In this document: piece after piece, positions 19,837 to 58,493 of the stretch
How positions within the stretch are numbered: position 1 is the first letter of the stretch
How the letters are laid out: each line of letters begins with the position of its first letter
Origin: Candidatus Tectimicrobiota bacterium
Lineage (GTDB): Bacteria > UBA8248
Direction: 5' to 3'
Assembly: GCA_016192135.1 (NCBI GenBank)
Contig: JACPUR010000035.1
Coordinates: 95,056-159,055, forward strand
Length of the DNA stretch: 64,000 nucleotides
Translations under genes and position numbers: made by a program
Notes under the pieces: model-generated
The model's database searches: none
What the model was told of the DNA's origin: nothing
The model's input: only the letters and a program-made list of their open reading frames with translations

Positions 19837-20655
19837 GTGGCCCAGCCGCCGCGCTTCGATGAGAAAGCCGCCCGCCGCGTCGAGGCGGTCTACACCACGC
19901 CGGACGTGGCCGGCCAGCGGGCCCTCGTCCTGGAGGCGCTGGGGCTCAGGCCCGGGGAGCGCGTCCTGGACGTGGGGGTGGGCCCGGGTTTCCTGGCCCG
20001 GGAGATGGCCGGGGCCGTGGGGCCCGGGGGCTCGGTCGAGGGAGTGGACGTGAGCCCCGCCATGCTGGAGCTGGCCCGGGCGCGGCTGGAGGGCTTGCCG
20101 TGCGCCTCCCTGCGGGAGGGGGACGCTCTTCACCTGCCATTCGGCGATGAGGAGTTCGACGCCGCGGCGGCCATCCAGGTGTATGAGTACGTGAAGGAGA
20201 TCGATCGGGCGCTCGCCGAGCTTTTCCGGGTGCTGGGCCCAGGGGGCCGGGCGGCCATCCTGGACACGGACTGGGGCTCCCTCGTCTGGCGAGCGCGGGA
20301 CGGCGAGCGGGCGCGCCGCGTCATGGAGGCCTGGGACGAGCACCTGGCCGACCCCCACCTGCCGCGCACCCTCTCGGGCCGGCTGAGAAGGGCGGGGTTC
20401 GATATCCTCCGCCGGGAGGCGGTGCCCATCCTCAACCCCGAGTACAATCCGGGCACTTACAGCGCAGGGATGATCGGCCTCATCGTCCCCTTCGTCATCG
20501 GCCGCCGGGGCGTCACCAAGGAGGAGGCCAAGGCCTGGGCCGAGGACCTCAAGGCTCTGGGCGAACGAGGGGGGTACTTTTTCAGCCTCAACCGCTATCT
20601 CTTCCTCGTCCGCAAGCCGGGCGGGGCGCAGCGCGCGCAAGCGGAATCTTCCTAA
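19837..20655 (+). CDS. class I SAM-dependent methyltransferase
   Basis: GTG 19837 after GGGAGG. Motif I (VLDVGVGPGFLA). Methyltransf_11-like. Confidence 0.7.
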   Translation: MAQPPRFDEKAARRVEAVYTTPDVAGQRALVLEALGLRPGERVLDVGVGPGFLAREMAGAVGPGGSVEGVDVSPAMLELARARLEGLPCASLREGDALHLPFGDEEFDAAAAIQVYEYVKEIDRALAELFRVLGPGGRAAILDTDWGSLVWRARDGERARRVMEAWDEHLADPHLPRTLSGRLRRAGFDILRREAVPILNPEYNPGTYSAGMIGLIVPFVIGRRGVTKEEAKAWAEDLKALGERGGYFFSLNRYLFLVRKPGGAQRAQAESS

Positions 20656-20669
20656 AGGAGCGGACGGTC

Positions 20670-21002
20670 ATGCCTGTGTACAGCTGGAAGGACGTGCCGG
20701 AGAAGCAGCTCAACAACATCGTGCGGGGGCGCATCGTCCAGACCAAGAACGTCATGGCCTGCCGCATCACCGCCCCCCAGGGGGGGAAGGTCAAGACCCA
20801 CACCCACCCCTTCGACCAGATCACCCATCTGCTGCGCGGGAAGTTCCTCTGGCAGATCGAGGGGGAGGAGCCCCGCATCGTCCAGGCCGGGGACGTGCTG
20901 GTGCTCCCGGCCGGCACCCCGCACGGGGGCGAGGTGCTCGAGGAGGCGGAGTACATCGACATCTTCTCCCCGCCCAACCCGGATTTCGGTTGGGATAAGT
21001 AG
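20670..21002 (+). CDS. cupin domain protein
   Basis: AAAGGAG SD. (HTHPFDQITHLLRGK ... PAGTPHGGE) cupin motifs. Confidence 0.7.
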   Translation: MPVYSWKDVPEKQLNNIVRGRIVQTKNVMACRITAPQGGKVKTHTHPFDQITHLLRGKFLWQIEGEEPRIVQAGDVLVLPAGTPHGGEVLEEAEYIDIFSPPNPDFGWDK

Positions 21003-21079
21003 TCGGAATGCAGGAATGAGCAGAGAAAGAAGCGGGGCGGTCGTCTGGCCGACCCGCCTCTTTTTTCGCTTGGCTTGCC

Positions 21080-21787
21080 TCAGTCCAGCATCGCGACGGC
21101 GCGGATGGGGGAGCCGGTGCCGCCCTTGAGCTTCAAGGGCAGGCCGATGAAGGTGAAGCGCTTGCCCACGAGGCGCTTGGGGATGACGAGGTTCTCGGTG
21201 TTGAGCATGTTGCGCTCCCTGCACACCTGGTGGGCGGGGTAGGGCTCGTCCGCGTCCGGCGTCATGGTGACCGGGTTCTCGATGGTAAAGGGCTCGCAGC
21301 CCACGTTCCCCACGCCATGGTCGGCCAAGTACTCGGCCCCCTTGCGGCTCAGGCCGGCGAACTCGGTCCACCACTTGTCCTTGTCGTGGAACCACTTCTC
21401 ATAGTGCCCCGAGTGGTAGAGGAAGGTGTCGCCCTTCTCGATCTTCAAGCCGTGGCGCTTGAGCTCGGCCTCGATGTGCTCGGGCTCGATGAAGGTGCGC
21501 GCGGGGATATTGGAGAAGTCCACGCACAGGCCCCCCGTCACGAAGCGGGCGAGGGGGAGCTGGTCGATGGAGGGGGAGCCGGGCGCCGGGTTGAAGTGGT
21601 TGATGGCGTCCACGTGGGTCGAACTGTGATCGGAGAGCTTGAAGGACATCGCCATGAAGGAGAACTTGCCCTTGAAGCGCTTCGAGGACTCCTCGTGCGT
21701 CATCATCGGCGCGATTTCGGGGGTGGGGTGGAAGGGCCGGGCGTAGCCTCCGGGGGCGATGGTCTGGGCGAGGTCGATCAGCTCCAC
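21080..21787 (-). CDS. cyclase family protein (second paralog)
   Basis: GTG 21787 with AAGGAG 7 nt upstream gives (M)ELIDLAQ..., typical of the cyclase N-terminus. (HSSTHVDAINH) motif. The longer ORF-track start is rejected. Confidence 0.7.
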   Translation of the reverse strand: MELIDLAQTIAPGGYARPFHPTPEIAPMMTHEESSKRFKGKFSFMAMSFKLSDHSSTHVDAINHFNPAPGSPSIDQLPLARFVTGGLCVDFSNIPARTFIEPEHIEAELKRHGLKIEKGDTFLYHSGHYEKWFHDKDKWWTEFAGLSRKGAEYLADHGVGNVGCEPFTIENPVTMTPDADEPYPAHQVCRERNMLNTENLVIPKRLVGKRFTFIGLPLKLKGGTGSPIRAVAMLD

Positions 21788-21845
21788 AATTCTTCTCCTT
21801 AAAATTGAACAGTGCGGATGTGACGGGGGGTCGCCTTTCATCCGC

Positions 21846-21873
21846 AGGGGCGGTTCGCGAACCGCCCCTGCGC
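21846..21873. repeat. REP family 2 unit (GCAGGGGCGGTTCGCGAACCGCCCCTGC)
   Basis: Perfect 28-nt palindrome. Same unit at 27311 and 29842. Confidence 0.5.
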
Positions 21874-21943
21874 GGGACAGATCTTCAAAACGCCCTCGCA
21901 TGCGGCCGGAACCGGGATTCGCCGCGCGGCCGCCCGGCGGGCC

Positions 21944-23530
21944 TCAAATCCTGGGCGCCGAAACCGGCTTCCACGTCCGCTTGAGCTTCAAATCCTCCGC
22001 GATGGCGTTGGCGCAGTTGTAGCCGGGCGCGCCGGTGACGGCCCCGCCCACGTGGGAGCTCGACCCGCACAGGTAGAGGCCCTTCACCGGGGTGCGGAAT
22101 TGGCTCACCTTGGGGTGGGGCCGGTTGAAGCCGAGCTGCTCGGGGATGTAGGCCCCGACGTGGTGGCTGGCCCGCGGCATGTTGGCGTTGCCCTTGGCGA
22201 TGTCGTAGGGGGTGTAGAGGTAGCTGCCCAGGATGTTGCTCTTGTTGACGTTCGGGGCGTAGGCCTGCCACGCCTTGATGAACTCCTGGGTGAGCTCCTT
22301 GCGGTGCCTGTCCCATCCCTTGGCCCCCTCGCCGTTCAGCTCGTAGGGGGCGAAGGGCCACCAGAAGCCCACGTGGGCGCCCTCGGGGGCGTAGCTTGGC
22401 TCGAAGAGGCTGTTGCTGCCGCCGTTCCCCATGAGGCGGGGCAGATCGTTCCTGTGGATGTCCTCGAAGCACTCGTCGATCTCTTCGGTCGTGTCCGCGC
22501 CCCAGAAGATGTTGAAGGTCCTGTTGATGTCGGGTTCGAACTTGGCCGCCTTGAAGTCCGGAGCCTTCTTGAGGGCGAGGTGGATGGTGCACAGGGCGTG
22601 GGAGGCCCACTTATATTTCTTGGCAGCGGCCGAGAGCTCCTTGCCGAGGTGGCTCTCCCCCGCGAGCTGGACGGTCAGGGGCCAGTTCACCCCGCTCGCG
22701 ACGAACTTCCCGGCCTGGAGTCTCGTGCCGTCGTCCAGCGCCACGCCGGTGGCCTCGCCGCCGCGGACCGCGATCTCCCTGACTGCGGCGTCCGTGAAGA
22801 CCTTGCCTCCGCCCTGGACGATGACGCGCTCCAGGGCGCGGGCGAAGTTGGCGCTGCCGCCCACCGGCAGCCCGAAGTTGGCGATGCGCGAGAAGATGCG
22901 AGGAAAGAAGATCCCCGTCTTGGGCGTATTCTCCAGGGTGAAGGAGCCCAGGAAGAGCTTGAAGAGCACCCGCAGCCGCTCGTCCTCGAAGTGCTGGTCC
23001 ACCGCCTCGTACATGCTGAGGTCGTTGTACGCCCAGAACTCGCGGCCCAGCGGGCCCGAGAAGCGTTCGGCCATCTCGTCCGGCGGGAGGGGCGCGCAGT
23101 ACATGAACGAGGTGATGATGTCGAGCATGCCCTCGGTGAACTTGACGTGGAGCTCGCGGTAGGTTTTCGCGTCCTTCTTGTTGAGGCGGGCGATGGACTT
23201 GACCGTCTTCTCCACGTCGCGGTGGATGACGAAGCCCGTGCCGTCGCGGAAGACGCACCCCTGCTGCTGCTCGGGATAGACGAGGGCGAGGCCGTACTTG
23301 TGCAGTTCCAGGTCGTCGAGGATGGGGGAGCGGTCCAGTCCGACGTAGTAGTTCGAGTGGAGGTTGTGCTTGAAGCCGGGGAGCGTCACCTCGCGGGTCG
23401 AGCAGCCCCCGCCGATGACGCTGGCGCGCTCCAGCACGGCCACCTTCATCCCCGCCTTCGCCAGGTAGGCGCCGCAGACGAGGCTGTTGTGCCCGCCGCC
23501 GATCAAGATTCCGTCGAATGCTTCGGACAT
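21944..23530 (-). CDS. phytoene desaturase-family FAD/NAD(P)-dependent oxidoreductase (CrtI-like)
   Basis: ATG 23530 after AAGGAG. (GILIGGGHNSLVCGAYLAKAG) dinucleotide-binding motif. Amino-oxidase fold. Ends 150 nt before the cyclase gene. Confidence 0.75.
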   Translation of the reverse strand: MSEAFDGILIGGGHNSLVCGAYLAKAGMKVAVLERASVIGGGCSTREVTLPGFKHNLHSNYYVGLDRSPILDDLELHKYGLALVYPEQQQGCVFRDGTGFVIHRDVEKTVKSIARLNKKDAKTYRELHVKFTEGMLDIITSFMYCAPLPPDEMAERFSGPLGREFWAYNDLSMYEAVDQHFEDERLRVLFKLFLGSFTLENTPKTGIFFPRIFSRIANFGLPVGGSANFARALERVIVQGGGKVFTDAAVREIAVRGGEATGVALDDGTRLQAGKFVASGVNWPLTVQLAGESHLGKELSAAAKKYKWASHALCTIHLALKKAPDFKAAKFEPDINRTFNIFWGADTTEEIDECFEDIHRNDLPRLMGNGGSNSLFEPSYAPEGAHVGFWWPFAPYELNGEGAKGWDRHRKELTQEFIKAWQAYAPNVNKSNILGSYLYTPYDIAKGNANMPRASHHVGAYIPEQLGFNRPHPKVSQFRTPVKGLYLCGSSSHVGGAVTGAPGYNCANAIAEDLKLKRTWKPVSAPRI

Positions 23531-23805
23531 GGGTGAAAACTCCTTCCCGCATCCGGGGCCGGGGCGAGGGCCGCATCCTCCCGGCCGCGGGAGGATGCGA
23601 GTGGATTTGATCGTGTCAACGGGGATAATTTGCCCCAAGTCCGGCCCTGGCACAACCGGTCCGAAAAAGGGCGAGGCCGGGTGTGAAGAGGGCCACAGGA
23701 GCCGATGTGAGGGAAGCCACTGGCGGCCGGATTTTCCTTTCGCTTTCGGGTGACGATAATATATACAGGCCCGATCTTTCCGGCTCGGGGGCGGAGGGGA
23801 CGGCG

Positions 23806-24132
23806 GTGCTGACCACGCTGCGGAAAACCATCGGACGGCTGGCTCTTGTCGGAGGGGCGGGCCTGCTCGTCTTTCAGGTTGTGCAGTGGAGACAGCAGGG
23901 CATCTGGACGGCCTTCCCTCTGGGCATCCTCCTGGAAGGCTTCATGCGCCTCATCGGGACGCTGATGGGAATGCTGCCCTTCGTCACTCCGGAAGGCGTC
24001 GAGATGTTCCTCTACTTCGACATTTCCCAACTTCCCGGCGTCCTGCACCGCTTCTTCCTCGTCCTTCCTCTGTCGGGTTTTCTCCTGGTCCTGGGCTATT
24101 TCTGCTTGAGATGGGAAAAATACCTGGGATAG
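23806..24132 (+). CDS. small hypothetical membrane protein (3 TM)
   Basis: GTG 23806 after GGAGGGG. Hydrophobic helices. Start uncertain (the ORF-track start 23683 lies upstream of an AT-rich promoter-like stretch). Confidence 0.3.
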   Translation: MLTTLRKTIGRLALVGGAGLLVFQVVQWRQQGIWTAFPLGILLEGFMRLIGTLMGMLPFVTPEGVEMFLYFDISQLPGVLHRFFLVLPLSGFLLVLGYFCLRWEKYLG

Positions 24133-24185
24133 GGTAAGCGATTGATTTGAATTCGTTTGCCGTCGCGGGGCGCCGCCGAAAAACC

Positions 24186-24214
24186 TTGACTCCCCGCCTC
24201 CGAATTTTTATATT
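24186..24214 (+). promoter_or_regulatory. sigma70-like promoter (TTGACT-17nt-TATATT)
   Basis: Near-consensus -35 and -10 hexamers with 17-nt spacing, approx 45 nt upstream of a small ORF with a perfect SD. Confidence 0.4.
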
Positions 24215-24264
24215 GGTATTGGAAGCACGGACATCGTCATGCGCGCGACAAGAGGAGGATCTTC

Positions 24265-24363
24265 ATGGCCAATGGCATGATGATGGCTCCAACGATGAAG
24301 ATAGTGCGAAAGGTGCTGAAGGCGCCTTTCGGGCGGAAGAGGGTCCTCAAGAATCCGGAGTAA
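24265..24363 (+). CDS. small ORF (32 aa), Met-rich and basic
   Basis: AGGAGG 6 nt before the ATG. Encodes (MANGMMMAPTMKIVRKVLKAPFGRKRVLKNPE). Consensus promoter upstream. Strong terminator 160 nt downstream. Confidence 0.35.
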   Translation: MANGMMMAPTMKIVRKVLKAPFGRKRVLKNPE

Positions 24364-24521
24364 GGGCCCTGGTGCGCGGTCGCTGGCCGCACTGTGGGCC
24401 GCCGGAAAAGTCAGCGGGAAGGACGGCCGCCTTCCGAGTGTCGCTCGAGAGGGCGTGTCGCTAAGATGAGACGAGAGGCCGGGCATCCGGCCTGGGAGTC
24501 CGGCGAAGCTCCGGACCCACG

Positions 24522-24562
24522 AAAAGAAAAAAAGCGGCGCCGCGAGGCGCCGCTTCTTTTTT
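24522..24562. terminator. bidirectional rho-independent terminator
   Basis: A-run, GCGGCGCC-GCGA-GGCGCCGC hairpin, T-run. Serves the small-ORF unit (+) and the convergent cupin gene (-). Confidence 0.6.
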
Positions 24563-24583
24563 GGGCGATCGCTTGCGCGGCGC

Positions 24584-24985
24584 CTAGTGGCCCTTCTGGG
24601 CCTCCGCCGTCCGCTGCCGGATGGCGTCGGTGGTGTAGAGATGCCGGTCCTTGGCCAGATCGGTGTTGAAGACGGGGCAGAAGACCTCGAGCAGCATGCC
24701 CGGCTCGTGGGTCGTCATCCGGAGCATGTGCATCGCGCCCTTGGGGACGTGCACCACGTCGCCCGGGCGCAGGATGCGCGTGTCGCCCTCGAGCGTGAAC
24801 TCCCACTCCCCCGCCTGGATGTAGAAGAACTCCTCGTGGTCGGGATGGTTGTGGGGCTTCGTGGGCGTGCCGCCCGGCTCCATGATGAGGTGCTGCATCT
24901 GCATGTTGTCGCCGAAGATGCGGCGGTGGGCCGCCCCGGGACGGTCATGGGAGAGGGGAAGTAGGTCCCAGTTGTAGAACGCCAT
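24584..24985 (-). CDS. cupin domain protein
   Basis: AGGAGG SD. (HNHPDHEEFFYIQAG ... VVHVPKGAMH) cupin motifs. Confidence 0.7.
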   Translation of the reverse strand: MAFYNWDLLPLSHDRPGAAHRRIFGDNMQMQHLIMEPGGTPTKPHNHPDHEEFFYIQAGEWEFTLEGDTRILRPGDVVHVPKGAMHMLRMTTHEPGMLLEVFCPVFNTDLAKDRHLYTTDAIRQRTAEAQKGH

Positions 24986-25108
24986 TCCAATTCCTCCTTG
25001 CTTGCGGAAATCCGCTCGGGAGCGGCTTAAGAGGGGGCGATGATAGCCCCACTCCCCGGAGGAAGAAAAGCGCCGCTCGCGTTTTCCGCGATGCGGAAGC
25101 GGGAAATC

Positions 25109-25546
25109 CTATTCGGGCGTCAGCTCGAGGGTGTGGATGCCCCGGGTGTACTGGTGGGGCCGGAGGGAGCGCCCGGGGGGGAGGAAGGCGTATCCCAGCC
25201 GGCGGCCATCCGCTCCCAGGACGGCGTAGAGCCGCATCGGAGCGAGGCGCCTGGCCAGCACGGGCAGCCGCTCCGCGCCCGTCTCCCCCGAGACGTAGCG
25301 GGCCGGGTTCAGGAGCAGGTGGAGGGGCTCGGCGAGGTCCTCGGCGAGGACGGCCACGCGCTCGGTCGTCTCCCGGGTTTCGAGCAGATACTCCGCGTAG
25401 AAGAGGCGGTCGCGGTAGAGCTGCTCGTCCAGGGGCGGCATGGGCTCGAGGCGGACGTTGTCGCGGGCCAGGAGGCCGGCGCCGCCGCACCCGGCGGGCG
25501 CGGCCAGCAGGAGCCCGGCCAGGATGAGGGCGCCGATGTATCCCAC
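25109..25546 (-). CDS. hypothetical lipoprotein
   Basis: GTG 25546 after GGAGGA. Signal-anchor (GALILAGLLLAAPAGC). Divergent from pepA. Confidence 0.4.
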   Translation of the reverse strand: MGYIGALILAGLLLAAPAGCGGAGLLARDNVRLEPMPPLDEQLYRDRLFYAEYLLETRETTERVAVLAEDLAEPLHLLLNPARYVSGETGAERLPVLARRLAPMRLYAVLGADGRRLGYAFLPPGRSLRPHQYTRGIHTLELTPE

Positions 25547-25711
25547 CGTCTTCCTCCGTCTCGGGCGCGCGCGGAAAGCTCCTCTACTCTTCCACAAACC
25601 GGCCCGCGAAGGAAGGCCCGCCGGTGGCGGCCCGCCCCTGCTTCCGCTAGACTGCCGCCCCGGCCCGCGAGAGCGGCGCTTGCCTGCCCGAATCCCCAGA
25701 GGAGAGTCCGC

Positions 25712-27256
25712 ATGCGATTTTCCGTTGCGTCGGGCGACGGATGGTCCCAGGGCACCGACGCGATCATCCTTCCCATCGCCGAGAAGGCGAAGAACGACCG
25801 CCTCGACAAGGCGCTCGGCGGCGCGCTCTCCGCGCTGGCCCGGCGCGGCGTGTTCGAGGGCAAGGCCGGCCAGGTGCACGCCCTGCGGGTCCCCTCGCGC
25901 GGGGGCAGGCGCGGGCCCGAGGTGGCGGTGCTGGCCGGACTGGGGAAGGCCGGGGAGGCGACGCAGGAGACGGTCCGCCGCGCCCTGGGCTCGGCCGGCA
26001 GGCGCGCCCGGAGCGAGGGTGCCCGGAGCGTGGCCGTTTCCCTGGACGGCGCGGTGGGCGGAGGTCTGGGGGCGGAGGAGGCCGCCCGGGCGGCGGCGGA
26101 GGGGCTGGCGCTCGGCCTCTACCGGATGGAGCGCTTCAAGGGCGCGAAGAGCCGGGAGAAGCTCGCCAAGGAGCGCATGGAGCGGGCCGTCCTCTGCGGC
26201 GGAAGGGGCATCTCCCGGTCCGCCATGAGCCGGGGGATGCGGCTCGGGCAGATCCTGGCCGAGGGCACGGCCGTGGCGCGCGACCTGGTGAACACCCCGA
26301 GCAACGAGAAGCGCCCGCCCGACCTCGCCGCCGAGGTGCGGCGCATCGCGCGCAAGGCGGGGCTCAGGTGCACCGTCCTGGACGGCCGCCAGCTCGCCAG
26401 GCTCAAGATGGGGGCCCTCCTGGCCGTCGCGCGCGGGAGCTCCGCCCCGGCCCGCGTGTTCGTCCTGGAATACCGGCCCGGCCGGAGCTCGTCCAGGCCC
26501 ATCGCGTTCGTGGGGAAGGGCGTCACCTTCGACACGGGGGGCATCTCCATCAAGCCCAGCTCGGGCCTCGAGCTCATGACCACCGACATGAGCGGAGCGG
26601 CCGCCGTGGTGGGGGCCATGGTCTGCGTCGCGCGCCTCAAGCCCCGGGTGCCCGTCGTCGGAGTGGGGGCCCTGGTCGAGAACATGCTGGGCGCGGACGC
26701 CACCCGCCCCGGCGACATCGTGCGCGCCATGAGCGGCACCACCGTCGAGATCCACAACACCGACGCCGAGGGGAGGCTCGTCCTGGCCGACGCCCTCCAC
26801 TACACCAAGACGCGCTTTAAGCCCCAGTGCATGATCGACCTCGCCACCCTGACCGGGGCCTGCGTCGTGGCCCTGGGCGAAAAGCTCACGGGGCTCTACG
26901 CCACCCACGACGAGATGCGGGAGCGCATGATGCGGCTCGGGGAGGAGACGGGGGATAGGCTGTGGCACATGCCCCTCTACCCCGAGTTCGGCGACATGAT
27001 GAAGGGAAAGCTCGCCGATCTCTGCAACATCTCCGGAGGGCGCTACGGCGGGGCGAACACGGCGGCGGCCTTCCTCCAGCATTTCGCCGAGGGCACCCCC
27101 TGGGTCCACCTCGACATCGCGGGCCCGGCCCACACCTCGAAGGAGGAGCCCTACCGCCCCGCCGGGGGCACCGGGGTGGGGGTGCGGCTCCTGGCCGAGC
27201 TCGCCCGCACCTGGACCAGCCTCCCCAAGCAGAAGGGCAAGGCCTTCGGGACGTGA
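25712..27256 (+). CDS. pepA: leucyl aminopeptidase (M17)
   Basis: ATG 25712 after GGAGAG. (NTDAEGRL) M17 signature and C-terminal catalytic domain. The ORF-track upstream extension is rejected. Confidence 0.85.
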   Translation: MRFSVASGDGWSQGTDAIILPIAEKAKNDRLDKALGGALSALARRGVFEGKAGQVHALRVPSRGGRRGPEVAVLAGLGKAGEATQETVRRALGSAGRRARSEGARSVAVSLDGAVGGGLGAEEAARAAAEGLALGLYRMERFKGAKSREKLAKERMERAVLCGGRGISRSAMSRGMRLGQILAEGTAVARDLVNTPSNEKRPPDLAAEVRRIARKAGLRCTVLDGRQLARLKMGALLAVARGSSAPARVFVLEYRPGRSSSRPIAFVGKGVTFDTGGISIKPSSGLELMTTDMSGAAAVVGAMVCVARLKPRVPVVGVGALVENMLGADATRPGDIVRAMSGTTVEIHNTDAEGRLVLADALHYTKTRFKPQCMIDLATLTGACVVALGEKLTGLYATHDEMRERMMRLGEETGDRLWHMPLYPEFGDMMKGKLADLCNISGGRYGGANTAAAFLQHFAEGTPWVHLDIAGPAHTSKEEPYRPAGGTGVGVRLLAELARTWTSLPKQKGKAFGT

Positions 27257-27270
27257 GGGGGGAAAAATGT

Positions 27271-27340
27271 AGGGGCGACCGGCCGGTCGCCCCTACAGAC
27301 GTGAAGAGCCATTGATTTCCTGTAGGGGCGGTTCGTGAAC
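27271..27340. repeat. REP family 2 doublet (GTAGGGGCG...CGCCCCTAC x2)
   Basis: TAGGGGCGACCGGCCGGTCGCCCCTAC and GTAGGGGCGGTTCGTGAACCGCCCCTAC, between convergent genes. Confidence 0.55.
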
Positions 27341-27363
27341 CGCCCCTACTTCTTTCGCTTGCC

Positions 27364-27462
27364 CGATGCTTGTCATTCCGAACGAAGCGCGGGATCTACG
27401 TTTCACGCCACTCGCGAAGATTCCTTCGTCGCTGCGCTCCCTCGGAATGACATGGTGCCATT
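27364..27462. repeat. approx 100-nt palindromic MITE-like element
   Basis: Terminal inverted repeats GTCATTCCGAACGAAGCG ... CGCTCCCTCGGAATGAC. Confidence 0.4.
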
Positions 27463-27471
27463 GTTGAAAAA

Positions 27472-28383
27472 TTACCTCCCCTTGATCGTCCGCGCCCTTG
27501 CCAGCACCCTCTCGGCGTGCTTGGCCATGGCCACGTCCACCATCTTCCCCTTGTAGGTCACGGCGCCCAGGCCCGCCTTCGTGCCTTCCCCGAGGGCCTG
27601 CATCATCCCCTCGTAGTAGTCCACCTCGGCCGGGCTGGGGGAGAAGACCTCGTTGAAGATGGCGATCTGCTTGGGGTGGATGGCCGCCTTGCCGGTGTAG
27701 CCCAACTGCCTGGCGAGGGCGGCGTCGGCCCGGCAGCCCGCCTCGTCGTCGAGCCGCATGTAGACGCCGTCCGTGGGGTGGGGCATCCCCGCCGCGCGGG
27801 CGTCCGTCAGGGCCTTGCTGCGGGCGTAGAGGAGGGTGACGCCGTCCGGGGACCAGGTGGCGCCCAGGTCCCGGCAGAGGTCGGCGTCCTCGGCGCTGCC
27901 GAAGTTGATGCCCACCACGCGCGGGACGGCCGTGCACATCTCGTAGCAGTTGACCACTCCCTTGGCGCTCTCGATCTGGAGGATAATCCCGATGCCCCCC
28001 GCCTCGAGGCTCCGGTCCTTCTCCAACCGGGTGAGGATGGCGTCCGCCGTCCGGGCGTCGGCCGCGCTCTCGGGCTTGGGGAGGAAGATGGCGTCCAGGC
28101 CCGCGACGGCGACGGCCTCCAGGTCCTTCTCCAGCATTCCGGTTTCGACCGCGTTCACCCGCACCAGGGTGGTGAGGGGGGCGCCGGGGGCCTTCTTGAG
28201 CCCGGGGATGGCCTGGGCCACGAGCTCGCGGGCCTTCTGCTTCTGGGCCGGGGCGACCGAGTCCTCCAGGTCGTAGAGGGCCCCGTCGGCGCCCGAGGAG
28301 GGGGCCTTGGCGACCATCTTCTCGTTGCTGCCGGGGGTGAAGAGCATGGAGCGGAGCGGCGTGGTGACGAGGGGTCGTGCCAT
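27472..28383 (-). CDS. HpcH/HpaI-CitE family acyl-CoA lyase (citryl/malyl/citramalyl-CoA lyase-like)
   Basis: ATG 28383. (SMLFTPG ... LEDSVAP ... ILQIESAKG ... FGSAEDADLCRDLG) CitE motifs. Last gene of the E1alpha-E1beta-E2 operon. Confidence 0.75.
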   Translation of the reverse strand: MARPLVTTPLRSMLFTPGSNEKMVAKAPSSGADGALYDLEDSVAPAQKQKARELVAQAIPGLKKAPGAPLTTLVRVNAVETGMLEKDLEAVAVAGLDAIFLPKPESAADARTADAILTRLEKDRSLEAGGIGIILQIESAKGVVNCYEMCTAVPRVVGINFGSAEDADLCRDLGATWSPDGVTLLYARSKALTDARAAGMPHPTDGVYMRLDDEAGCRADAALARQLGYTGKAAIHPKQIAIFNEVFSPSPAEVDYYEGMMQALGEGTKAGLGAVTYKGKMVDVAMAKHAERVLARARTIKGR

Positions 28384-28388
28384 GAGGA

Positions 28389-29741
28389 TTAAGACTCCAA
28401 ATGAGAGAGATCCATCCCTTCGAGCGCGCTGCGGACGGCGGCGGCGAAGCGGCCCGCCGCCATGCCGTCGTTCGCCCGGTGGTCGAACGACAACGAGAGC
28501 GTCATCAGGGGAAGGAGGCCGATCCCTCCGCCGGGCAGGGCCGCCGCGCGCGGCGCGATCAGGCCCGTCCCGATGATGGCCGCCTCGGGCGGGTTGAGGA
28601 GGGGGATGCCCCCCCGGGCCCCCGAGGCGCCGAAGTTGGTGAGGGTGAGAGTGCCGCCCCCCATGTCGTCGGGGGTGAGCCCCCCCGAGCGGGCGCGGGC
28701 GCCCAGGCCGTCGACCGCCCGGACGAGGTCCACGAAGCCCATCCGGTCGATCTCCCGCAGGACGGGTACCACGAGCCCCTCGGGCGTGTCCACGGCGATC
28801 CCGAGGTTGACGTAGCGCGCCACGTGCAGCTCGTCCCCCTCGAAGCGGGCGTTCAGCCGCGCGTGGGCGGGGTCGCGCAGGGCGTGGACGATGGCCAGGG
28901 CGAGGAAGGGCGTGTAGCTGAGCGAGGCCCCGTGCCCCTCCCGGAAGCGCTCCTTGTGGGCCTCGCGCCAGGCGGCGATGCGGCTCATGTCCACGTCCAT
29001 CCACAGGCTCGCCTGGGGGATAGCCGCCGAGCGCGAGAGGTTCTCGGCGATGCGCCGGCGGAGGCGGGTCAGGGGCTCCCGCCGCTCACGGGGCTTCCCT
29101 TCCTCCGCCAGGGGGCGGAAGAGGAGCCTCACCGAGGGCGCGGCGGAGCCCCCCGCCTCGATGAAGCGCTCCACGTCCCGCGCCGTCACCCGGCCCCCCG
29201 CCCCCGTGCCGGGGAGGCCGAGGATCGTCCCCAGCGGGATGCCGTGCTCCGCCGCGAGGCGCTGCACGCGGGGGGAGAGCCATTTTCCTTGGCTATCGGG
29301 CGCCGCTTGCCGCGCTTGGGGAGCGGCGGGCCTCGACGGGGCGGGGGACACGGCGGGGGCTTGGCGCGGCGGGAGCGGGGCCACGGGGGCCACCCAGTCC
29401 CCCTCCGGCTGCTTGGGGGGGCCGGAGGCTTTCGGTGCGGCGCCTCCGGCCGGGGCCTTCGGCGCGGGGGAGGTCTCGGGAGGCGCGTCGGGGATCTCTT
29501 CTTCCGTTTCCAGCAGGGCGAGCACCTCGCCCACCGGGACGGTGGCGTCCGGAGCGACCAGGACCTCCTTCAGCACCCCGTCCGCCGGGCTCTCGACCTC
29601 GAACTCCACCTTATCGCTCTCGGCGGAGAGGAGAGGCTCTCCCTTCGCCACGCGATCTCCCGCCGCCTTCTTCCACTCGACCACGGTGCTCTCGTGAACG
29701 CTCGTGCCCATGCGCGGCATGCGGATGCGGGCGATGGGCAT
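28389..29741 (-). CDS. 2-oxoacid dehydrogenase E2 component (dihydrolipoamide acyltransferase)
   Basis: Lipoyl domain (SAESDKVEFEVESPADGVL), PSBD, catalytic domain (SFDHRANDG). ATG 29741 after AGGTGGAG. Confidence 0.8.
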   Translation of the reverse strand: MPIARIRMPRMGTSVHESTVVEWKKAAGDRVAKGEPLLSAESDKVEFEVESPADGVLKEVLVAPDATVPVGEVLALLETEEEIPDAPPETSPAPKAPAGGAAPKASGPPKQPEGDWVAPVAPLPPRQAPAVSPAPSRPAAPQARQAAPDSQGKWLSPRVQRLAAEHGIPLGTILGLPGTGAGGRVTARDVERFIEAGGSAAPSVRLLFRPLAEEGKPRERREPLTRLRRRIAENLSRSAAIPQASLWMDVDMSRIAAWREAHKERFREGHGASLSYTPFLALAIVHALRDPAHARLNARFEGDELHVARYVNLGIAVDTPEGLVVPVLREIDRMGFVDLVRAVDGLGARARSGGLTPDDMGGGTLTLTNFGASGARGGIPLLNPPEAAIIGTGLIAPRAAALPGGGIGLLPLMTLSLSFDHRANDGMAAGRFAAAVRSALEGMDLSHLES

Positions 29742-29841
29742 GGGGGGCTCCACCTTTTCGCAAATCGGGCGATAGGGCCGAGGGAGACTGCCTCCGGCGC
29801 GCCGGGGCGCCTTACTCGCAGGGGTGCATCCGCCGATTTCC

Positions 29842-29870
29842 CGCAGGGGCGGTTCGCGAACCGCCCCTCC
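29842..29870. repeat. REP family 2 unit inside the E1beta-E2 intercistronic region
   Basis: GCAGGGGCGGTTCGCGAACCGCCCCTCC. Confidence 0.5.
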
Positions 29871-29926
29871 GAAAAGCGCCTCGCGCCTCGCGTGCGCCCG
29901 TTTGCCCGCCGCCCGGCCATGCGCCG

Positions 29927-30925
29927 CTAGAACGCGGCCAGTTCCCGGAGCGCCCCGACGACCTGGGCGGTGCCGGGGAGATACGCCTTCTCGAGCGGCG
30001 GGCTGAGGGGCACGGGGCAGTCCGGCGCGCCGACGCGGCGGATGGGGGCGTCCAGGTGCTCGAACACCTCCTCCGCGATGAGCGCGGCGATCTCTCCGCC
30101 GACCCCGCCCCTCTTGCGGGCCTCGTGGAGGATGAGGAGCTTGCCCGTCTTCTTCACGCTCCGGAGGATGGCCTCCTTGTCCATGGGGACGAGGGTGCGA
30201 AGGTCGATGACCTCGGCCGAGACGCCCTCCCTCTCCAGCACCTGGGCGGCCTCGAGGGCCTCGAGGACGCTGGTCCCGAAGGTGAGGAGGGTCAGATCTT
30301 CGCCCTCGCGCAGGGTGCGCGCCTGGCCGAAGGGCACGGTGTAGTCGCCCTCCGGAACGTCGATCTGGAGCTGGGGAGGGAGATCCGCCGGCCGGTAGTT
30401 GTAGAACTTCTTGTACTCCATGAAGATGACGGGATTGTCGTCCCGGATGGCCTGCTTGAGCATCCCCTTGGCGTCGTAGGCGGTGGCCGGGGCGACTATC
30501 TTCAAGCCGGGCGTGCCGAAGAACCAGCTCTCGGGATTCACGCTGTGGTAAGGGCCCCCGCTCACGAGAGCCGCCGAGGGGAGGCGCAGGACGATGGGGA
30601 CGGGGCCCATCCGCCGGTAGTGGTTCCCGGCGGCGAAGTCCACGATCATCTTGAAGGCCTCGGTCACGAAGTCCGCGAACTGGTACTCCACCACGGGCCG
30701 CATCCCCGCCAGGGCGGCGCCGATGGCGGCGCCGGTGAAGCCGGCCTCGCTCAAGGGGGCGTCCACCACCCGGTCGCGCCCGAAGTGCTGCTGGAATCCC
30801 TTGGTGATGTAGAAGGCGCCCCCGCCCAGGCCGATGTCCTCCCCGACGAGGAATACCCGCTCGTCGCGCTCCATCTCCTCCCAGAGCGCGGCGCTCAAGG
30901 CCTCCCGGTAGGTGATGAGGCTCAT
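29927..30925 (-). CDS. 2-oxoacid dehydrogenase E1 component beta subunit
   Basis: ATG 30925 overlapping the alpha-subunit stop (ATGA). Transketolase-like pyrimidine-binding and C-terminal domains. Confidence 0.85.
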   Translation of the reverse strand: MSLITYREALSAALWEEMERDERVFLVGEDIGLGGGAFYITKGFQQHFGRDRVVDAPLSEAGFTGAAIGAALAGMRPVVEYQFADFVTEAFKMIVDFAAGNHYRRMGPVPIVLRLPSAALVSGGPYHSVNPESWFFGTPGLKIVAPATAYDAKGMLKQAIRDDNPVIFMEYKKFYNYRPADLPPQLQIDVPEGDYTVPFGQARTLREGEDLTLLTFGTSVLEALEAAQVLEREGVSAEVIDLRTLVPMDKEAILRSVKKTGKLLILHEARKRGGVGGEIAALIAEEVFEHLDAPIRRVGAPDCPVPLSPPLEKAYLPGTAQVVGALRELAAF

Positions 30926-57815: not shown

Positions 57816-58493
57816 TTGCGGATCGGCATCCAGGGAGGCACCTTCAATCCCATCCACTGCGGCCATCTCCGGTCGGCGGAGGAGGTCCGCGAAGCCCTCG
57901 GCCTGGATCAAATCCGCTTCATCCCTTCCGCCCAGCCGCCCCACAAGGCCGGCGAGGAGATGGCCCCCGCCCGGGACCGGCTGGAGATGGTGCGCCTGGC
58001 GGTCGAGGGGCACCCCGGCTTCGTCTGCGACCCCCTGGAGGCGGAGCGGGGAGGCCCCTCCTACACCGTGGACACGCTCGAGGCCCTGGCCGAGGGGCCC
58101 TGCCGGGGCCACGAGACGGTCTTCATCATCGGGGCCGACGCCTTCCGCGAGGTCCACACCTGGAGCCGCCCCTCCCGGTTCCTGCGGATGACCCATCTGG
58201 CCGTGACCCTCCGGGGGGAGCAGCGGGCGGAGGAGGTGCTCCGGGCGGTGGAGCGGGAGATGCGGCCGCTGGACCCGGACCTGAGCTTCGAGTTCATTGG
58301 AGATAACCAGGCAAAAGTATCTGATTCTAGGCATGTTATCCACTTCGTTCAGATTTCCAACCTGGACATCTCCGCGACCCAGATCCGGCGCCTAATTCGA
58401 TCCGGAAGGTCCGTGCGGTATTTATTGCCTCGGGAAGTGGAACTTTTTATAATTCGCCGCCAGCTGTACGGGGGGATACTTGACGCCCGGTGA
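57816..58493 (+). CDS. nadD: nicotinate-nucleotide adenylyltransferase
   Basis: TTG start. (GGTFNPIHCGHL) HxGH motif. (ISATQIR). Confidence 0.8.
   Translation: MRIGIQGGTFNPIHCGHLRSAEEVREALGLDQIRFIPSAQPPHKAGEEMAPARDRLEMVRLAVEGHPGFVCDPLEAERGGPSYTVDTLEALAEGPCRGHETVFIIGADAFREVHTWSRPSRFLRMTHLAVTLRGEQRAEEVLRAVEREMRPLDPDLSFEFIGDNQAKVSDSRHVIHFVQISNLDISATQIRRLIRSGRSVRYLLPREVELFIIRRQLYGGILDAR

What the first reader, a model, noticed from the sequence alone, without database searches (positions are those of the whole stretch)
24186..24562. Self-contained micro-transcription unit: consensus promoter, perfect SD, 32-aa Met-rich basic ORF, structured 3' region, strong terminator
TTGACT-17nt-TATATT (24186-24214) is followed by AGGAGG 6 nt before an ATG (24265) encoding (MANGMMMAPTMKIVRKVLKAPFGRKRVLKNPE). 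The peptide has five Met in the first 11 residues, then a Lys/Arg-rich tail, and is not hydrophobic. Signals of this quality are unusual in this GC-rich genome, where most genes have weak or atypical starts. 158 nt of GC-rich structured sequence follow before a bidirectional terminator (24522-24562). This could be a small regulatory protein or ribosome-associated peptide, or a dual-function sRNA with an ORF.
Basis: seen in the sequence. Interest (0 to 1): 0.5.

Follow-up and report, generated by a model that had tools for sequence, protein, structure and literature searches.

The report
Conserved 32-residue basic small-protein gene
This is a real, self-contained gene for a 31-32-residue, strongly positively charged protein of unknown function. 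It is conserved with its promoter, ribosome-binding site and two mRNA hairpins in about two dozen uncultured Nitrospinota/Tectimicrobiota species, so it is a new small-protein family rather than an artefact or a known RNA.

Summary

The same 31/32-codon ORF, with the same promoter, SD and terminator layout, occurs once each in 22 species-level MAGs of the Nitrospinota/Tectimicrobiota group and in several metagenome contigs.

- **Coding signal:** in the conserved C-terminal half, divergence at codon positions 1/2/3 is 0.10/0.05/0.24. The position-3 rate equals that of the neighbouring cupin gene. Six codons vary only synonymously, and there are no indels inside the ORF.
- **Conserved part of the peptide:** the C-terminal [RK][RK]VLK-x4-RKRVLKxP. 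The Met run is not conserved; it is L/I/V in relatives.
- **RNA constraint:** a hairpin pairs the SD and AUG with codons 4-10, and the window's AUGAUGAUG is its 3' arm. A second hairpin starts 1-5 nt after the stop codon and shows compensatory changes.
- **No match to known families:** nothing in Pfam, NCBIfam, PHROGs, PADLOC, PDB or Rfam.

Function is unknown. My best guess, at low confidence, is a disordered cationic peptide that binds RNA or the ribosome. Moderate interest; a new member of a known kind.

The parts
24179..24183 (+). A tract just upstream of the -35 hexamer, possibly a proximal UP-element-like sequence
   Evidence: Read from the sequence. An A-rich run sits at the same position in all relatives, e.g. 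'aaaaaattcTTGACA'. That it works as an UP element is inference.
24186..24214 (+). Sigma-70-type promoter: TTGACT, 17 nt, TATATT
   Evidence: 10/12 match. One of 3 such sites in 64 kb against 0.29 expected. TTGACA-17-TAnnAT is conserved at the same distance from the ORF in nearly all of the aligned relatives.
24221..24264 (+). Predicted 5' UTR. The transcription start near 24221 is inferred from the -10 position, not mapped
   Evidence: Inference from promoter geometry. 5' UTR length varies from 22 to 54 nt in relatives, with indels that are not multiples of three.
24253..24258 (+). Shine-Dalgarno sequence AGGAGG, 6 nt before the ATG
   Evidence: In the 31-residue clade the SD-to-ATG block has a mean pairwise divergence of 0.03, against about 0.24 at neutral sites.
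24265..24363 (+). Small-protein gene: 32 codons plus TAA, encoding MANGMMMAPTMKIVRKVLKAPFGRKRVLKNPE (net charge about +7)
   Evidence: Homologous 31/32-codon ORFs in L011, L015-L017, L020-L043, L047-L052. Codon-position periodicity, synonymous-only codons and no indels. Invariant residues: M1, V17, L18, K25, R26, V27, L28, K29, P31.
24254..24291 (+). Hairpin over the translation initiation region. The 3' part of the SD and the AUG (24254-24267) pair with codons 4-9 (24276-24291), which include the AUGAUGAUG Met run
   Evidence: Predicted in every family member. 88.7% of cells are paired, against at most 69% when partners are slid. Pairs 12-35 and 13-34 are swapped between the two clades. In the window the MFE instead pairs 24232-24242 with 24276-24286.
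24365..24400 (+). Conserved hairpin beginning 1 nt after the stop codon
   Evidence: Folds in all members at the same place. In the 31-residue clade stem divergence is 0.12 and loop divergence 0.11 against about 0.24 neutral. 99.6% of cells are paired, with two pairs changed on both sides and five on one side. Also conserved in the 32-residue clade.
24401..24475 (+). Variable middle part of the 3' UTR. It is poorly conserved even among the three 32-residue-clade sequences and absent from the 31-residue clade
24476..24518 (+). Two short GC-rich hairpins specific to the 32-residue clade (AGGCCGG-GCAT-CCGGCCT at 24476-24493; GGGAGTCCGG...CCGGACCC at 24494-24518)
   Evidence: Consensus fold of W/L011/L017 with changes on both sides of several pairs. 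Only 3 sequences, so this is weak.
24527..24562 (.). Bidirectional intrinsic terminator shared with the convergent cupin gene
   Evidence: called on both strands. The stem sequence GCGGCGCC/GGCGCCGC is identical in W, L011 and L017. The related stem CAGGCGGCGTC/GRCGCCGCCTG has a divergence of 0.05 in the other clade.
24584..24985 (-). Convergent neighbour: 133-residue Cupin_2 protein. It is context and not shown to be part of the system
   Evidence: Pfam PF07883, E = 1.2e-17. It is the adjacent convergent gene in every locus that extends far enough, although the genes beyond it and upstream of the peptide gene differ.

Best explanation
Bases 24186-24562 are a complete monocistronic gene for a 32-residue cationic small protein. 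This protein belongs to a previously undescribed family confined, as far as found, to the Nitrospinota/Tectimicrobiota group.

**Shown by comparison**
- The ORF is under purifying selection at the amino-acid level, above all the C-terminal tandem motif [RK][RK]VLK-x4-RKRVLK-x-P.
- The promoter, SD, start, stop and terminator are conserved as a block. The flanking DNA is not.
- Two mRNA structures are also constrained. One hairpin pairs the SD and AUG with codons 4-10. The other starts 1-5 nt after the stop codon.

**Inferred**
- A near-consensus promoter with an upstream A tract drives strong transcription of an mRNA of about 340 nt (about 215 nt in the other clade).
- The start-site hairpin limits or conditions ribosome loading.
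- The post-stop hairpin and terminator protect the short mRNA, or serve as a binding site.
- The product is a disordered peptide of net charge +7 to +9. It probably acts by binding a polyanionic partner, most plausibly RNA or the ribosome, as the lineage-specific mini ribosomal proteins bTHX, bS22 and bL37 do.

I put the gene being real and translated at about 0.9. I put the RNA/ribosome-binding role at about 0.3.
For: **Family and layout**
- Homologous 31/32-codon ORFs with the same promoter, SD, ORF, hairpin and terminator layout are present in the loci that extend far enough: 22 of 23 genome hits, 6 of 9 metagenome hits, and the contigs fetched through the cupin neighbour.
- There is a single copy in the window and one pattern match per genome record.

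**Coding signal**
- In the C-terminal half, divergence at codon positions 1/2/3 is 0.10/0.05/0.24-0.25. The adjacent cupin gene in the same genomes gives 0.06/0.03/0.24.
- V17, L18, V27, L28, K29 and P31 vary only synonymously, with 2-4 codons each. R24 switches between CGN and AGA.
- All indels lie in the UTRs.

**RNA constraint**
- Divergence is 0.03 for SD-to-ATG, 0.11-0.12 for the post-stop hairpin and 0.05 for the terminator stem. All are below the neutral rate of about 0.24.
- There are compensatory pairs in the post-stop hairpin and in the start-site hairpin.

**Expression signals**
- The promoter is a rare, near-consensus site and is conserved.

**Nature of the peptide**
- There are no acidic residues in the 31-residue form, which carries 9 Arg/Lys.
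- AlphaFold2 with a 7-sequence alignment gives pLDDT 61 and no secondary structure. This is what is expected of a peptide that folds only on a partner.
Against: - There is no expression or proteomic evidence. The transcription start and mRNA length are inferred.
- The peptide has no detectable similarity to any ribosomal protein or RNA-binding family: Pfam, NCBIfam and a PDB profile search all gave nothing, and hhalign against bL34 gave a probability of 0.3%.
- The gene lies in a catabolic neighbourhood (cupin, AtzD-type amidohydrolases, M17 peptidase), not among translation genes.
- It is absent next to the cupin orthologue in two related lineages, L013/L014 and L018/L019. This argues against an indispensable core function.
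- The SD and AUG are predicted to be largely base-paired. That fits a conditionally expressed gene better than a constitutive ribosomal one.
- The AAG AGG codons for K25 and R26 never vary in 23 distinct sequences, although synonymous codons were allowed by the search pattern. This hints at extra nucleotide-level constraint inside the ORF.
Confidence: 0.5

Rival explanations
1. Dual-function RNA. The transcript encodes the peptide and also acts as a regulatory RNA, using the conserved post-stop hairpin, the A-rich spacer and the terminator as an sRNA-like 3' module. That module would base-pair with targets or bind a protein, possibly after processing.
For: The 3' UTR hairpin stem and loop and the terminator stem evolve 2-5 times more slowly than neutral sites. 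There are compensatory changes. Nucleotide-invariant AAG AGG codons and GAGGG/CCCU motifs recur along the RNA. The conserved island ends sharply at the promoter and terminator, as in sRNA genes.
Against: No Rfam family matches, in the window or in 8 relatives. No target or seed region could be identified. The loop sequences of the post-stop hairpin differ between the two clades. Conserved 3' hairpins are also expected for simple mRNA stabilisation.
Confidence: 0.15
2. The peptide works with, or on, the adjacent cupin protein, for example as a small regulatory subunit, inhibitor or substrate. Alternatively, its strong convergent transcription modulates cupin expression.
For: The peptide and cupin genes are adjacent and convergent in every locus that reaches far enough. 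This holds across cupin identities of 65-95% and despite different genes upstream of the peptide (membrane protein, AtzD or glyoxalase) and beyond the cupin (hyp145/M17 or acyl-CoA dehydrogenase).
Against: - The genes are convergent with strong intervening terminators, so they are neither co-transcribed nor antisense.
- The wider block (E2-HpcH-M17-cupin) is syntenic too, so adjacency may simply be inherited gene order among fairly close relatives.
- Cupin orthologues at 71-75% identity lack the peptide gene.
Confidence: 0.12
3. Membrane-active or toxic cationic peptide (antimicrobial-like, or a type-I-toxin-like growth regulator). It would have a short hydrophobic N-terminal segment and an amphipathic basic tail, kept in check by the start-site hairpin.
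For: Hydrophobic residues at positions 4-10 are followed by a Lys/Arg-rich tail with i, i+3, i+4 hydrophobic spacing (inference). The SD and AUG are sequestered in a hairpin, as in many toxin mRNAs.
Against: There is no transmembrane-length hydrophobic stretch. No promoter-like site for an antisense RNA was found on the minus strand of 20000-30000. There were no PADLOC or PHROG hits. The gene is single-copy and in stable chromosomal synteny, not in mobile contexts. There is no signal peptide or export gene nearby.
Confidence: 0.1
4. Purely non-coding sRNA. The ORF would be fortuitous, or would serve only as a structural spacer.
For: Strong nucleotide conservation of the whole unit and several conserved hairpins.
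Against: There is a three-base periodicity of substitution, with position 3 at the neutral rate. Six codons vary only synonymously. Start, stop and ORF length are conserved, and no indels occur in the ORF while the UTRs have many. The SD is perfect and conserved at a fixed 6-nt spacing.
Confidence: 0.03
5. Leader peptide of a transcription attenuator that senses Met (or another amino acid) supply.
For: A Met run early in a short ORF, followed by structured RNA and a terminator.
Against: - No gene follows on the same strand. The terminator abuts a convergent gene, in the window and in all relatives.
- The Met run is absent from the 31-residue clade.
- I saw no alternative antiterminator pairing when inspecting the sequence; the 3' arm of the post-stop hairpin has no complement in the terminator.
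- The conserved part is the C-terminal peptide sequence, which is unlike leader peptides.
Confidence: 0.02

Closest known systems
Lineage-specific mini ribosomal proteins: bTHX (Thermus), bS22 and bL37 (Actinobacteria and others; see PMC10081302, PMC6133939, PMC10085706, found)
   Same: Size of roughly 24-35 residues (from my own knowledge). Very high Arg/Lys content. Predicted to be unstructured alone. Restricted to one bacterial lineage.
   Different: No sequence similarity. Not located near translation genes. The start site is predicted to be sequestered. Missing from some related genomes at the syntenic site. Ribosome association is untested.
Dual-function sRNAs that encode small proteins (SgrS/SgrT, RNAIII/delta-haemolysin, SR1/SR1P; from my own knowledge)
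   Same: A short monocistronic transcript with its own promoter and terminator. A translated small ORF plus RNA segments outside it that are conserved at the nucleotide and structure level.
   Different: No base-pairing seed or target is known. There is no Rfam family. The ORF occupies about 30-45% of the transcript, and the peptide sequence itself is the best-conserved protein-level feature.
mRNAs whose ribosome-binding site is masked by pairing with early coding sequence (rpoH-type and RNA-thermometer-like control; from my own knowledge)
   Same: The SD and AUG pair with codons 4-10, including an anti-SD-like CUCC/CCGCC at codons 8-9.
   Different: No evidence of temperature or ligand dependence. 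The structure was predicted, not probed. The covariation rests essentially on one difference between the two clades.
Arginine-rich-motif peptides that bind RNA hairpins (lambda N with boxB; from my own knowledge)
   Same: A short basic peptide and a conserved small hairpin whose loop is conserved (UGAAAC, UGAGAC and UGUAAC in the 31-residue clade) on the same transcript.
   Different: This is an analogy only. No binding was tested. The loop differs in the 32-residue clade, and there is no antitermination context.

Membership tests
Genuine translated small-protein gene (conserved sORF) | ORF conserved in frame, length, start and stop across diverged relatives | tested here: met
   31 or 32 codons in all 23 distinct homologous coding sequences. 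There are no indels inside the ORF, while the UTRs have many.
Genuine translated small-protein gene (conserved sORF) | Substitution pattern of purifying selection on the protein (position 3 much more variable than positions 1 and 2; synonymous-only codons) | tested here: met
   0.10/0.05/0.24 in the C-terminal half, against 0.06/0.03/0.24 for the neighbouring cupin gene. Six codons vary only synonymously.
Genuine translated small-protein gene (conserved sORF) | Direct detection of the peptide or of ribosome occupancy | not testable with these tools
   No Ribo-seq or proteomics data are available for these uncultured organisms.
Small ribosomal proteins bTHX / bS22 / bL37 / bL34 / bL36 | Sequence homology to the family | tested here: not met
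   No Pfam or NCBIfam hit at E <= 10. The PDB profile search found nothing below E = 0.89; its only ribosomal hit was a eukaryotic L34-like protein at E = 5.3. hhalign against E. coli bL34 gave a probability of 0.3%.
Small ribosomal proteins bTHX / bS22 / bL37 / bL34 / bL36 | Physical presence in purified ribosomes | not testable with these tools
   Needs ribosome purification and mass spectrometry, or cryo-EM.
Dual-function sRNA | Conserved, structured RNA segment outside the ORF | tested here: met
   The post-stop hairpin and terminator evolve more slowly than neutral sites and show compensatory pairs.
Dual-function sRNA | Base-pairing regulation of target mRNAs | not tested
   No target prediction is possible without the genomes and transcriptomes. 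No Rfam family matches.
Leader peptide / transcription attenuator | Regulated gene downstream on the same strand, and alternative terminator/antiterminator pairings | tested here: not met
   The next gene is convergent in all loci. The Met run is not conserved.
Type I toxin-antitoxin | Hydrophobic membrane toxin with an overlapping antisense RNA gene | tested here: not met
   The peptide is mostly basic, with only about 7 hydrophobic residues in a row. No promoter-like site was found on the minus strand of 20000-30000. No PADLOC hit.
RiPP precursor peptide | Co-directional modifying enzymes next to the precursor; conserved N-terminal leader with a variable C-terminal core | tested here: not met
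   The neighbours are a convergent cupin and catabolic hydrolases whose identity varies. The conservation is the reverse of the RiPP pattern: variable N-terminus, invariant C-terminus.
Any described RNA family (Rfam 15) | Covariance-model match at the gathering score | tested here: not met
   The best hits are terminator look-alikes at 15-24 bits, against gathering scores of 41-114. There were no hits at gathering score in 8 related loci. No tRNA or tmRNA.

The most novel reading that the evidence does not exclude
The peptide is a lineage-specific RNA-binding factor. Either it is a previously unseen mini ribosomal or ribosome-associated protein of the Nitrospinota/Tectimicrobiota group, or it is an arginine/lysine-rich peptide that recognises the conserved hairpin on its own mRNA. 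In both cases it would be produced conditionally through the hairpin that masks its SD and AUG.
Probability: 0.2. Interest if true: 0.6.

Novelty: new member of a known kind. Interest (0 to 1): 0.4.

Why it matters
Genes this small are routinely missed or labelled 'hypothetical protein'. That is the only name any source gives this one, and several variants are absent from a collection of 15 billion proteins.

This one combines three things:
- comparative proof that it codes for protein;
- near-consensus expression signals;
- two conserved mRNA structures.

It occurs in a poorly studied group of uncultured bacteria that includes nitrite-oxidising and sponge-associated lineages. That makes it a well-defined candidate for a new ribosome- or RNA-associated factor. 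It is also a clean example of overlapping protein and RNA constraints: the Met run doubles as the arm of a start-site hairpin. In practical terms, it gives annotators a small-ORF family that can now be recognised by a simple pattern.

Tried and rejected
1. **tmRNA, tRNA or a known sRNA/riboswitch.** ARAGORN found nothing in the window. Rfam gave only sub-threshold terminator look-alikes and nothing in 8 relatives.
2. **Exact-sequence look-up of the peptide.** It returned 14 contigs that were 99-100% identical at the nucleotide level, so they say nothing about selection.
3. **The search for homologous proteins on the peptide or its alignment.** A 41-residue in-frame padded query found only the peptide itself.
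4. **phmmer of the 32-mer against 1.84 billion representatives.** Only two hits, both from the same clade. The family was recovered instead through synteny with the cupin gene and a degenerate DNA pattern.
5. **Family libraries.** Pfam, NCBIfam, PADLOC, PHROGs and a PDB profile search gave nothing significant. The mGluR and Cps4B matches are at chance level.
6. **bL34 resemblance** (GRxVLxRRRxKGRKxL), recalled from memory. hhalign gave a probability of 0.3%, so I rejected it.
7. **AlphaFold2.** The 7-sequence run gave a low-confidence coil, so no fold search was worthwhile.
8. **Attenuator or leader-peptide reading.** Rejected because no downstream gene lies on the same strand.
9. **The overlapping ORFs** (105 residues on the plus strand, 24147-24464; 92 and 51 residues on the minus strand). 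The substitution periodicity fits only the 32-codon frame. Open antisense frames are expected at this GC content.
10. **Stop-codon readthrough into the hairpin.** Rejected because the 3' UTR has indels that are not multiples of three and the stop codon varies (TAA, TGA, TAG).
Full report
**1. The observation**

- TTGACT at 24186-24191, a 17-nt spacer, and TATATT at 24209-24214.
- AGGAGG at 24253-24258, 6 nt before the ATG at 24265.
- A 32-codon ORF ending with TAA at 24361-24363, encoding MANGMMMAPTMKIVRKVLKAPFGRKRVLKNPE.
- A GC-rich stem (24534-24553) flanked by an A tract and a T tract. The terminator scan calls it on both strands.

The promoter is one of only three matches of at least 10/12 on either strand of the 64-kb window, against 0.29 expected. 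The perfect SD is not special here: AGGAGG followed by a start codon occurs 32 times, against about 11 expected, and the neighbouring cupin gene has one too. The predicted transcript (24221-24563) folds better than shuffled versions, with z = -3.99.

**2. It is not a known RNA**

- ARAGORN finds no tRNA or tmRNA in the window.
- Rfam gives only terminator look-alikes far below their gathering scores.
- Rfam finds nothing in eight related loci.

**3. Finding relatives**

The exact peptide is called on 14 metagenome contigs, but these are 99-100% identical in DNA and so uninformative. The peptide is too short for the word-indexed protein search. phmmer against 1.84 billion representatives gave two hits.

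Three other routes worked:
- I fetched contigs that carry homologues of the convergent cupin gene. They held unannotated 31/32-codon ORFs at the same position:
  - L011: MARGMMMAPTMGSPKKVLKAPSGQKRVLKHPD
  - L017: MARSVMMSPIKKEARRVLRAPSARKRVLKNPE
  - L015: MVRRLIVTALENSHRRVLKTAHSRKRVLKKP
  - L016: MAMLLMVSAREVAPRRVLKTAHSRKRVLKKP
  - L020: MARSVMLPARETSRRRVLKTARSRKRVLKEP
- A degenerate pattern for [RK][RK]VL[RK]-x4-[RKQ]KRVLKxP was scanned over one genome per GTDB species. It gave 23 hits, of which 22 are true members and one is a chance hit (L033). Their NCBI titles are Nitrospinota, 'Candidatus Tectomicrobia' or simply 'bacterium' MAGs.
- The metagenome scan added six more true members and three chance hits.

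NCBI places Tectomicrobia in the 'Nitrospinota/Tectimicrobiota group'. The closest cupin hit to the window is named 'Candidatus Tectomicrobia bacterium'. The only name any source gives the peptide is 'hypothetical protein'.

**4. The ORF is a real coding sequence**

- There are 23 distinct coding sequences and 16 distinct peptides.
- The ORF is always 31 codons in one clade and 32 in the window's clade. There are no internal indels, whereas the 5' and 3' UTRs carry many indels that are not multiples of three.
- In the 31-residue clade, mean pairwise divergence at codon positions 1/2/3 is 0.17/0.12/0.27 overall and 0.10/0.05/0.24 for codons 15-31.
- The neighbouring cupin gene in the same genomes gives 0.06/0.03/0.24. 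Third positions of the small ORF therefore drift at the local neutral rate, while first and second positions are held.
- V17, L18, V27, L28, K29 and P31 vary only synonymously, with two to four codons each. R24 alternates between CGN and AGA.
- Invariant residues are M1, V17, L18, K25, R26, V27, L28, K29 and P31.

**5. What is and is not conserved in the peptide**

- The conserved element is the C-terminal tandem motif [RK][RK]VLK-x4-RKRVLK-x-P.
- The N-terminal third is variable but hydrophobic at positions 4-10.
- The window's Met5-Met7 correspond to L/I/V in the other clade, so Met-richness is not a family trait.
- The 31-residue form has nine Arg/Lys and no acidic residue. The window form has eight Arg/Lys and one Glu.
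- AlphaFold2 with a seven-sequence alignment predicts no secondary structure, with pLDDT 61.

**6. RNA-level constraint**

The conserved island runs from an A tract just upstream of the -35 hexamer to the terminator T tract. DNA outside it cannot be aligned. Within it:
- SD-to-ATG has a divergence of 0.03.
- The post-stop hairpin has a divergence of 0.12 in the stem and 0.11 in the loop.
- The terminator stem has a divergence of 0.05.
- All of these are well below the neutral rate of about 0.24.

*Post-stop hairpin.* It starts 1-5 nt after the stop codon in every member (24365-24400 in the window). In the 31-residue clade 99.6% of cells are paired, with two pairs changed on both sides and five on one side.

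*Start-site hairpin.* A second structure pairs the 3' part of the SD and the AUG with codons 4-10 in essentially all members, and the predicted probability that the SD and AUG are paired is mostly 0.5-0.99.
- On an ungapped alignment of both clades, 88.7% of cells pair, against at most 69% when the partners are slid.
- Two adjacent pairs are swapped between the clades (C-G, U-A against U-A, C-G).
- These swaps may reflect one or two evolutionary events, so the support is moderate.
- In the window, the 3' arm of this helix is the AUGAUGAUG run. The Met codons therefore serve partly as complements of the ...UCAUG start region.
- The window also has an upstream near-repeat, CAUCGUCAUGC (24232-24242), that forms 11 bp with the same run in the MFE structure. 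It is a possible alternative partner.

Its middle part is poorly conserved even there, and its two short hairpins rest on three sequences.

**7. Genomic context**

Gene order is AmOx-type oxidoreductase / variable insert / peptide gene (+) / cupin (-) / (hyp145) / M17 aminopeptidase / HpcH aldolase / E2.
- The insert is a family-less membrane protein in the 32-residue clade. In the other clade it is glyoxalase, amidohydrolase and an AtzD-type hydrolase.
- The peptide gene is convergent with the cupin gene in every locus that extends far enough. This includes L011, where the far side of the cupin is rearranged, and L023, where the upstream hydrolases are missing.
- Cupin orthologues at 71-75% identity in L013/L014 and L018/L019 have no peptide gene beside them.
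- The cupin is a generic Cupin_2 protein with weak similarity to ureidoglycine aminohydrolase.
- The convergent orientation and the strong terminators argue against co-transcription or antisense overlap. The linkage may be inherited synteny.

**8. Comparison with known families**

- There are no hits in Pfam, NCBIfam, PADLOC or PHROGs.
- A profile search of all PDB chains found nothing below E = 0.89.
- A remembered resemblance to bL34 was tested and rejected.
- By size, charge and predicted disorder, the peptide resembles the lineage-specific mini ribosomal proteins bTHX, bS22 and bL37 (papers found). It is not a detectable member of any of these families, and its neighbourhood is catabolic rather than translational.
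- The transcript's architecture also resembles dual-function sRNAs and mRNAs with a masked ribosome-binding site. These are analogies of mechanism, not memberships.

**9. Explanation and rivals**

*Shown.* This is a conserved, single-copy, monocistronic small-protein gene with constrained start-site and post-stop RNA hairpins.

*Inferred.* Transcription is strong. Translation is gated by the start-site hairpin. The 3' structures stabilise the mRNA or bind a factor. The product is a disordered polycation that binds RNA or the ribosome (probability about 0.3).

*Rivals.*

| Rival | Probability |
|---|---|
| An additional riboregulatory role of the RNA | 0.15 |
| A functional tie to the cupin | 0.12 |
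| A membrane-active or toxic peptide | 0.10 |
| A purely non-coding RNA | 0.03 |
| A leader peptide | 0.02 |

The last two are contradicted by the codon-level evidence and by the gene arrangement.

**10. Verdict**

The hook (Met-richness, exceptional signals) is largely incidental. The object is a new small-protein family of unknown function in an understudied bacterial group. I rate it a new member of a known kind, of moderate interest (0.4).

Noticed in passing
window 24232-24242 with 24276-24286: The 5' UTR contains CAUCGUCAUGC, a near-copy of the start region. In the MFE fold it forms an 11-bp helix with the AUGAUGAUG Met run, leaving the SD and AUG in the enclosed loop. This competes with the start-site hairpin (24254-24267 with 24276-24291) and could be an on/off toggle. 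L011 and L017 show only the start-site pairing.
   Followed up: partly
window 24337-24342 (codons K25 and R26), and all homologues: AAG AGG is nucleotide-invariant in all 23 distinct coding sequences, although the search pattern allowed AAR MGN and the neighbouring Lys and Arg codons vary freely. GAGGG recurs four times along the RNA of the 31-residue clade (SD, codons 15-17, codons 25-27, 3' arm of the post-stop hairpin). RNAalifold pairs AGGGU with ACCCU at the stop codon, without covariation.
   Followed up: partly
window 24307-24335 (codons 15-24); A1 columns 95-118: A hairpin inside the ORF, over the first VLK repeat, is predicted in both clades from different sequences (AAGGUGC.../...GCGCCUU against GGAGGGUC.../...GGCUCACUCC). 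The changes are one-sided only, so this could be chance in GC-rich DNA.
   Followed up: partly
window 23683-24132 (+): A 149-residue ORF (108 residues from the start that gene callers used). It looks like a membrane protein, judged from its hydrophobic sequence, and has no Pfam or NCBIfam hit. It is conserved directly upstream of the peptide gene only in the 32-residue clade (60% identity in L011, 48% in L017).
   Followed up: partly
window 25040-27256 (+): The mechanical 738-residue ORF is an over-extended M17 leucyl aminopeptidase. Gene calls on the near-identical contig L001 (98% protein identity) put the start at about 25712, giving 514 residues. A 145-residue gene with no family lies on the opposite strand at about 25109-25546.
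   Followed up: no
window 58425-58453 (+) and 4071-4044 (-): These are the other two near-consensus promoter-like sites in the window. They sit upstream of ordinary protein genes: one looks by eye like an RsfS/iojap ribosome-silencing factor, the other like a TPR-type protein. Neither product was checked against a family library.
   Followed up: partly
L021, L034, L039-L042, from about 95 nt downstream of the peptide stop codon: A shared insert with a GGAGG(G)GCGGGG(A/G)A...CTCACCCTGAGTAGCGG core lies after the peptide terminator in several 31-residue-clade genomes. Where the cupin gene is in the locus, the insert sits between the terminator and that gene. It may be a repeat or small mobile element.
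   Followed up: no
L044 1125-1466 (-): A chance hit of the DNA pattern: an ORF made of tandem VERKR(A/V)LKRP repeats in a marine metagenome contig. It is unrelated to the family.
   Followed up: no
protein collection, cluster of P0037: The 90%-identity clustering places the 32-residue L011-type peptide in a cluster whose representative is a 459-residue protein of the rust fungus Phakopsora pachyrhizi. This is evidently a short-sequence clustering artefact.
   Followed up: no
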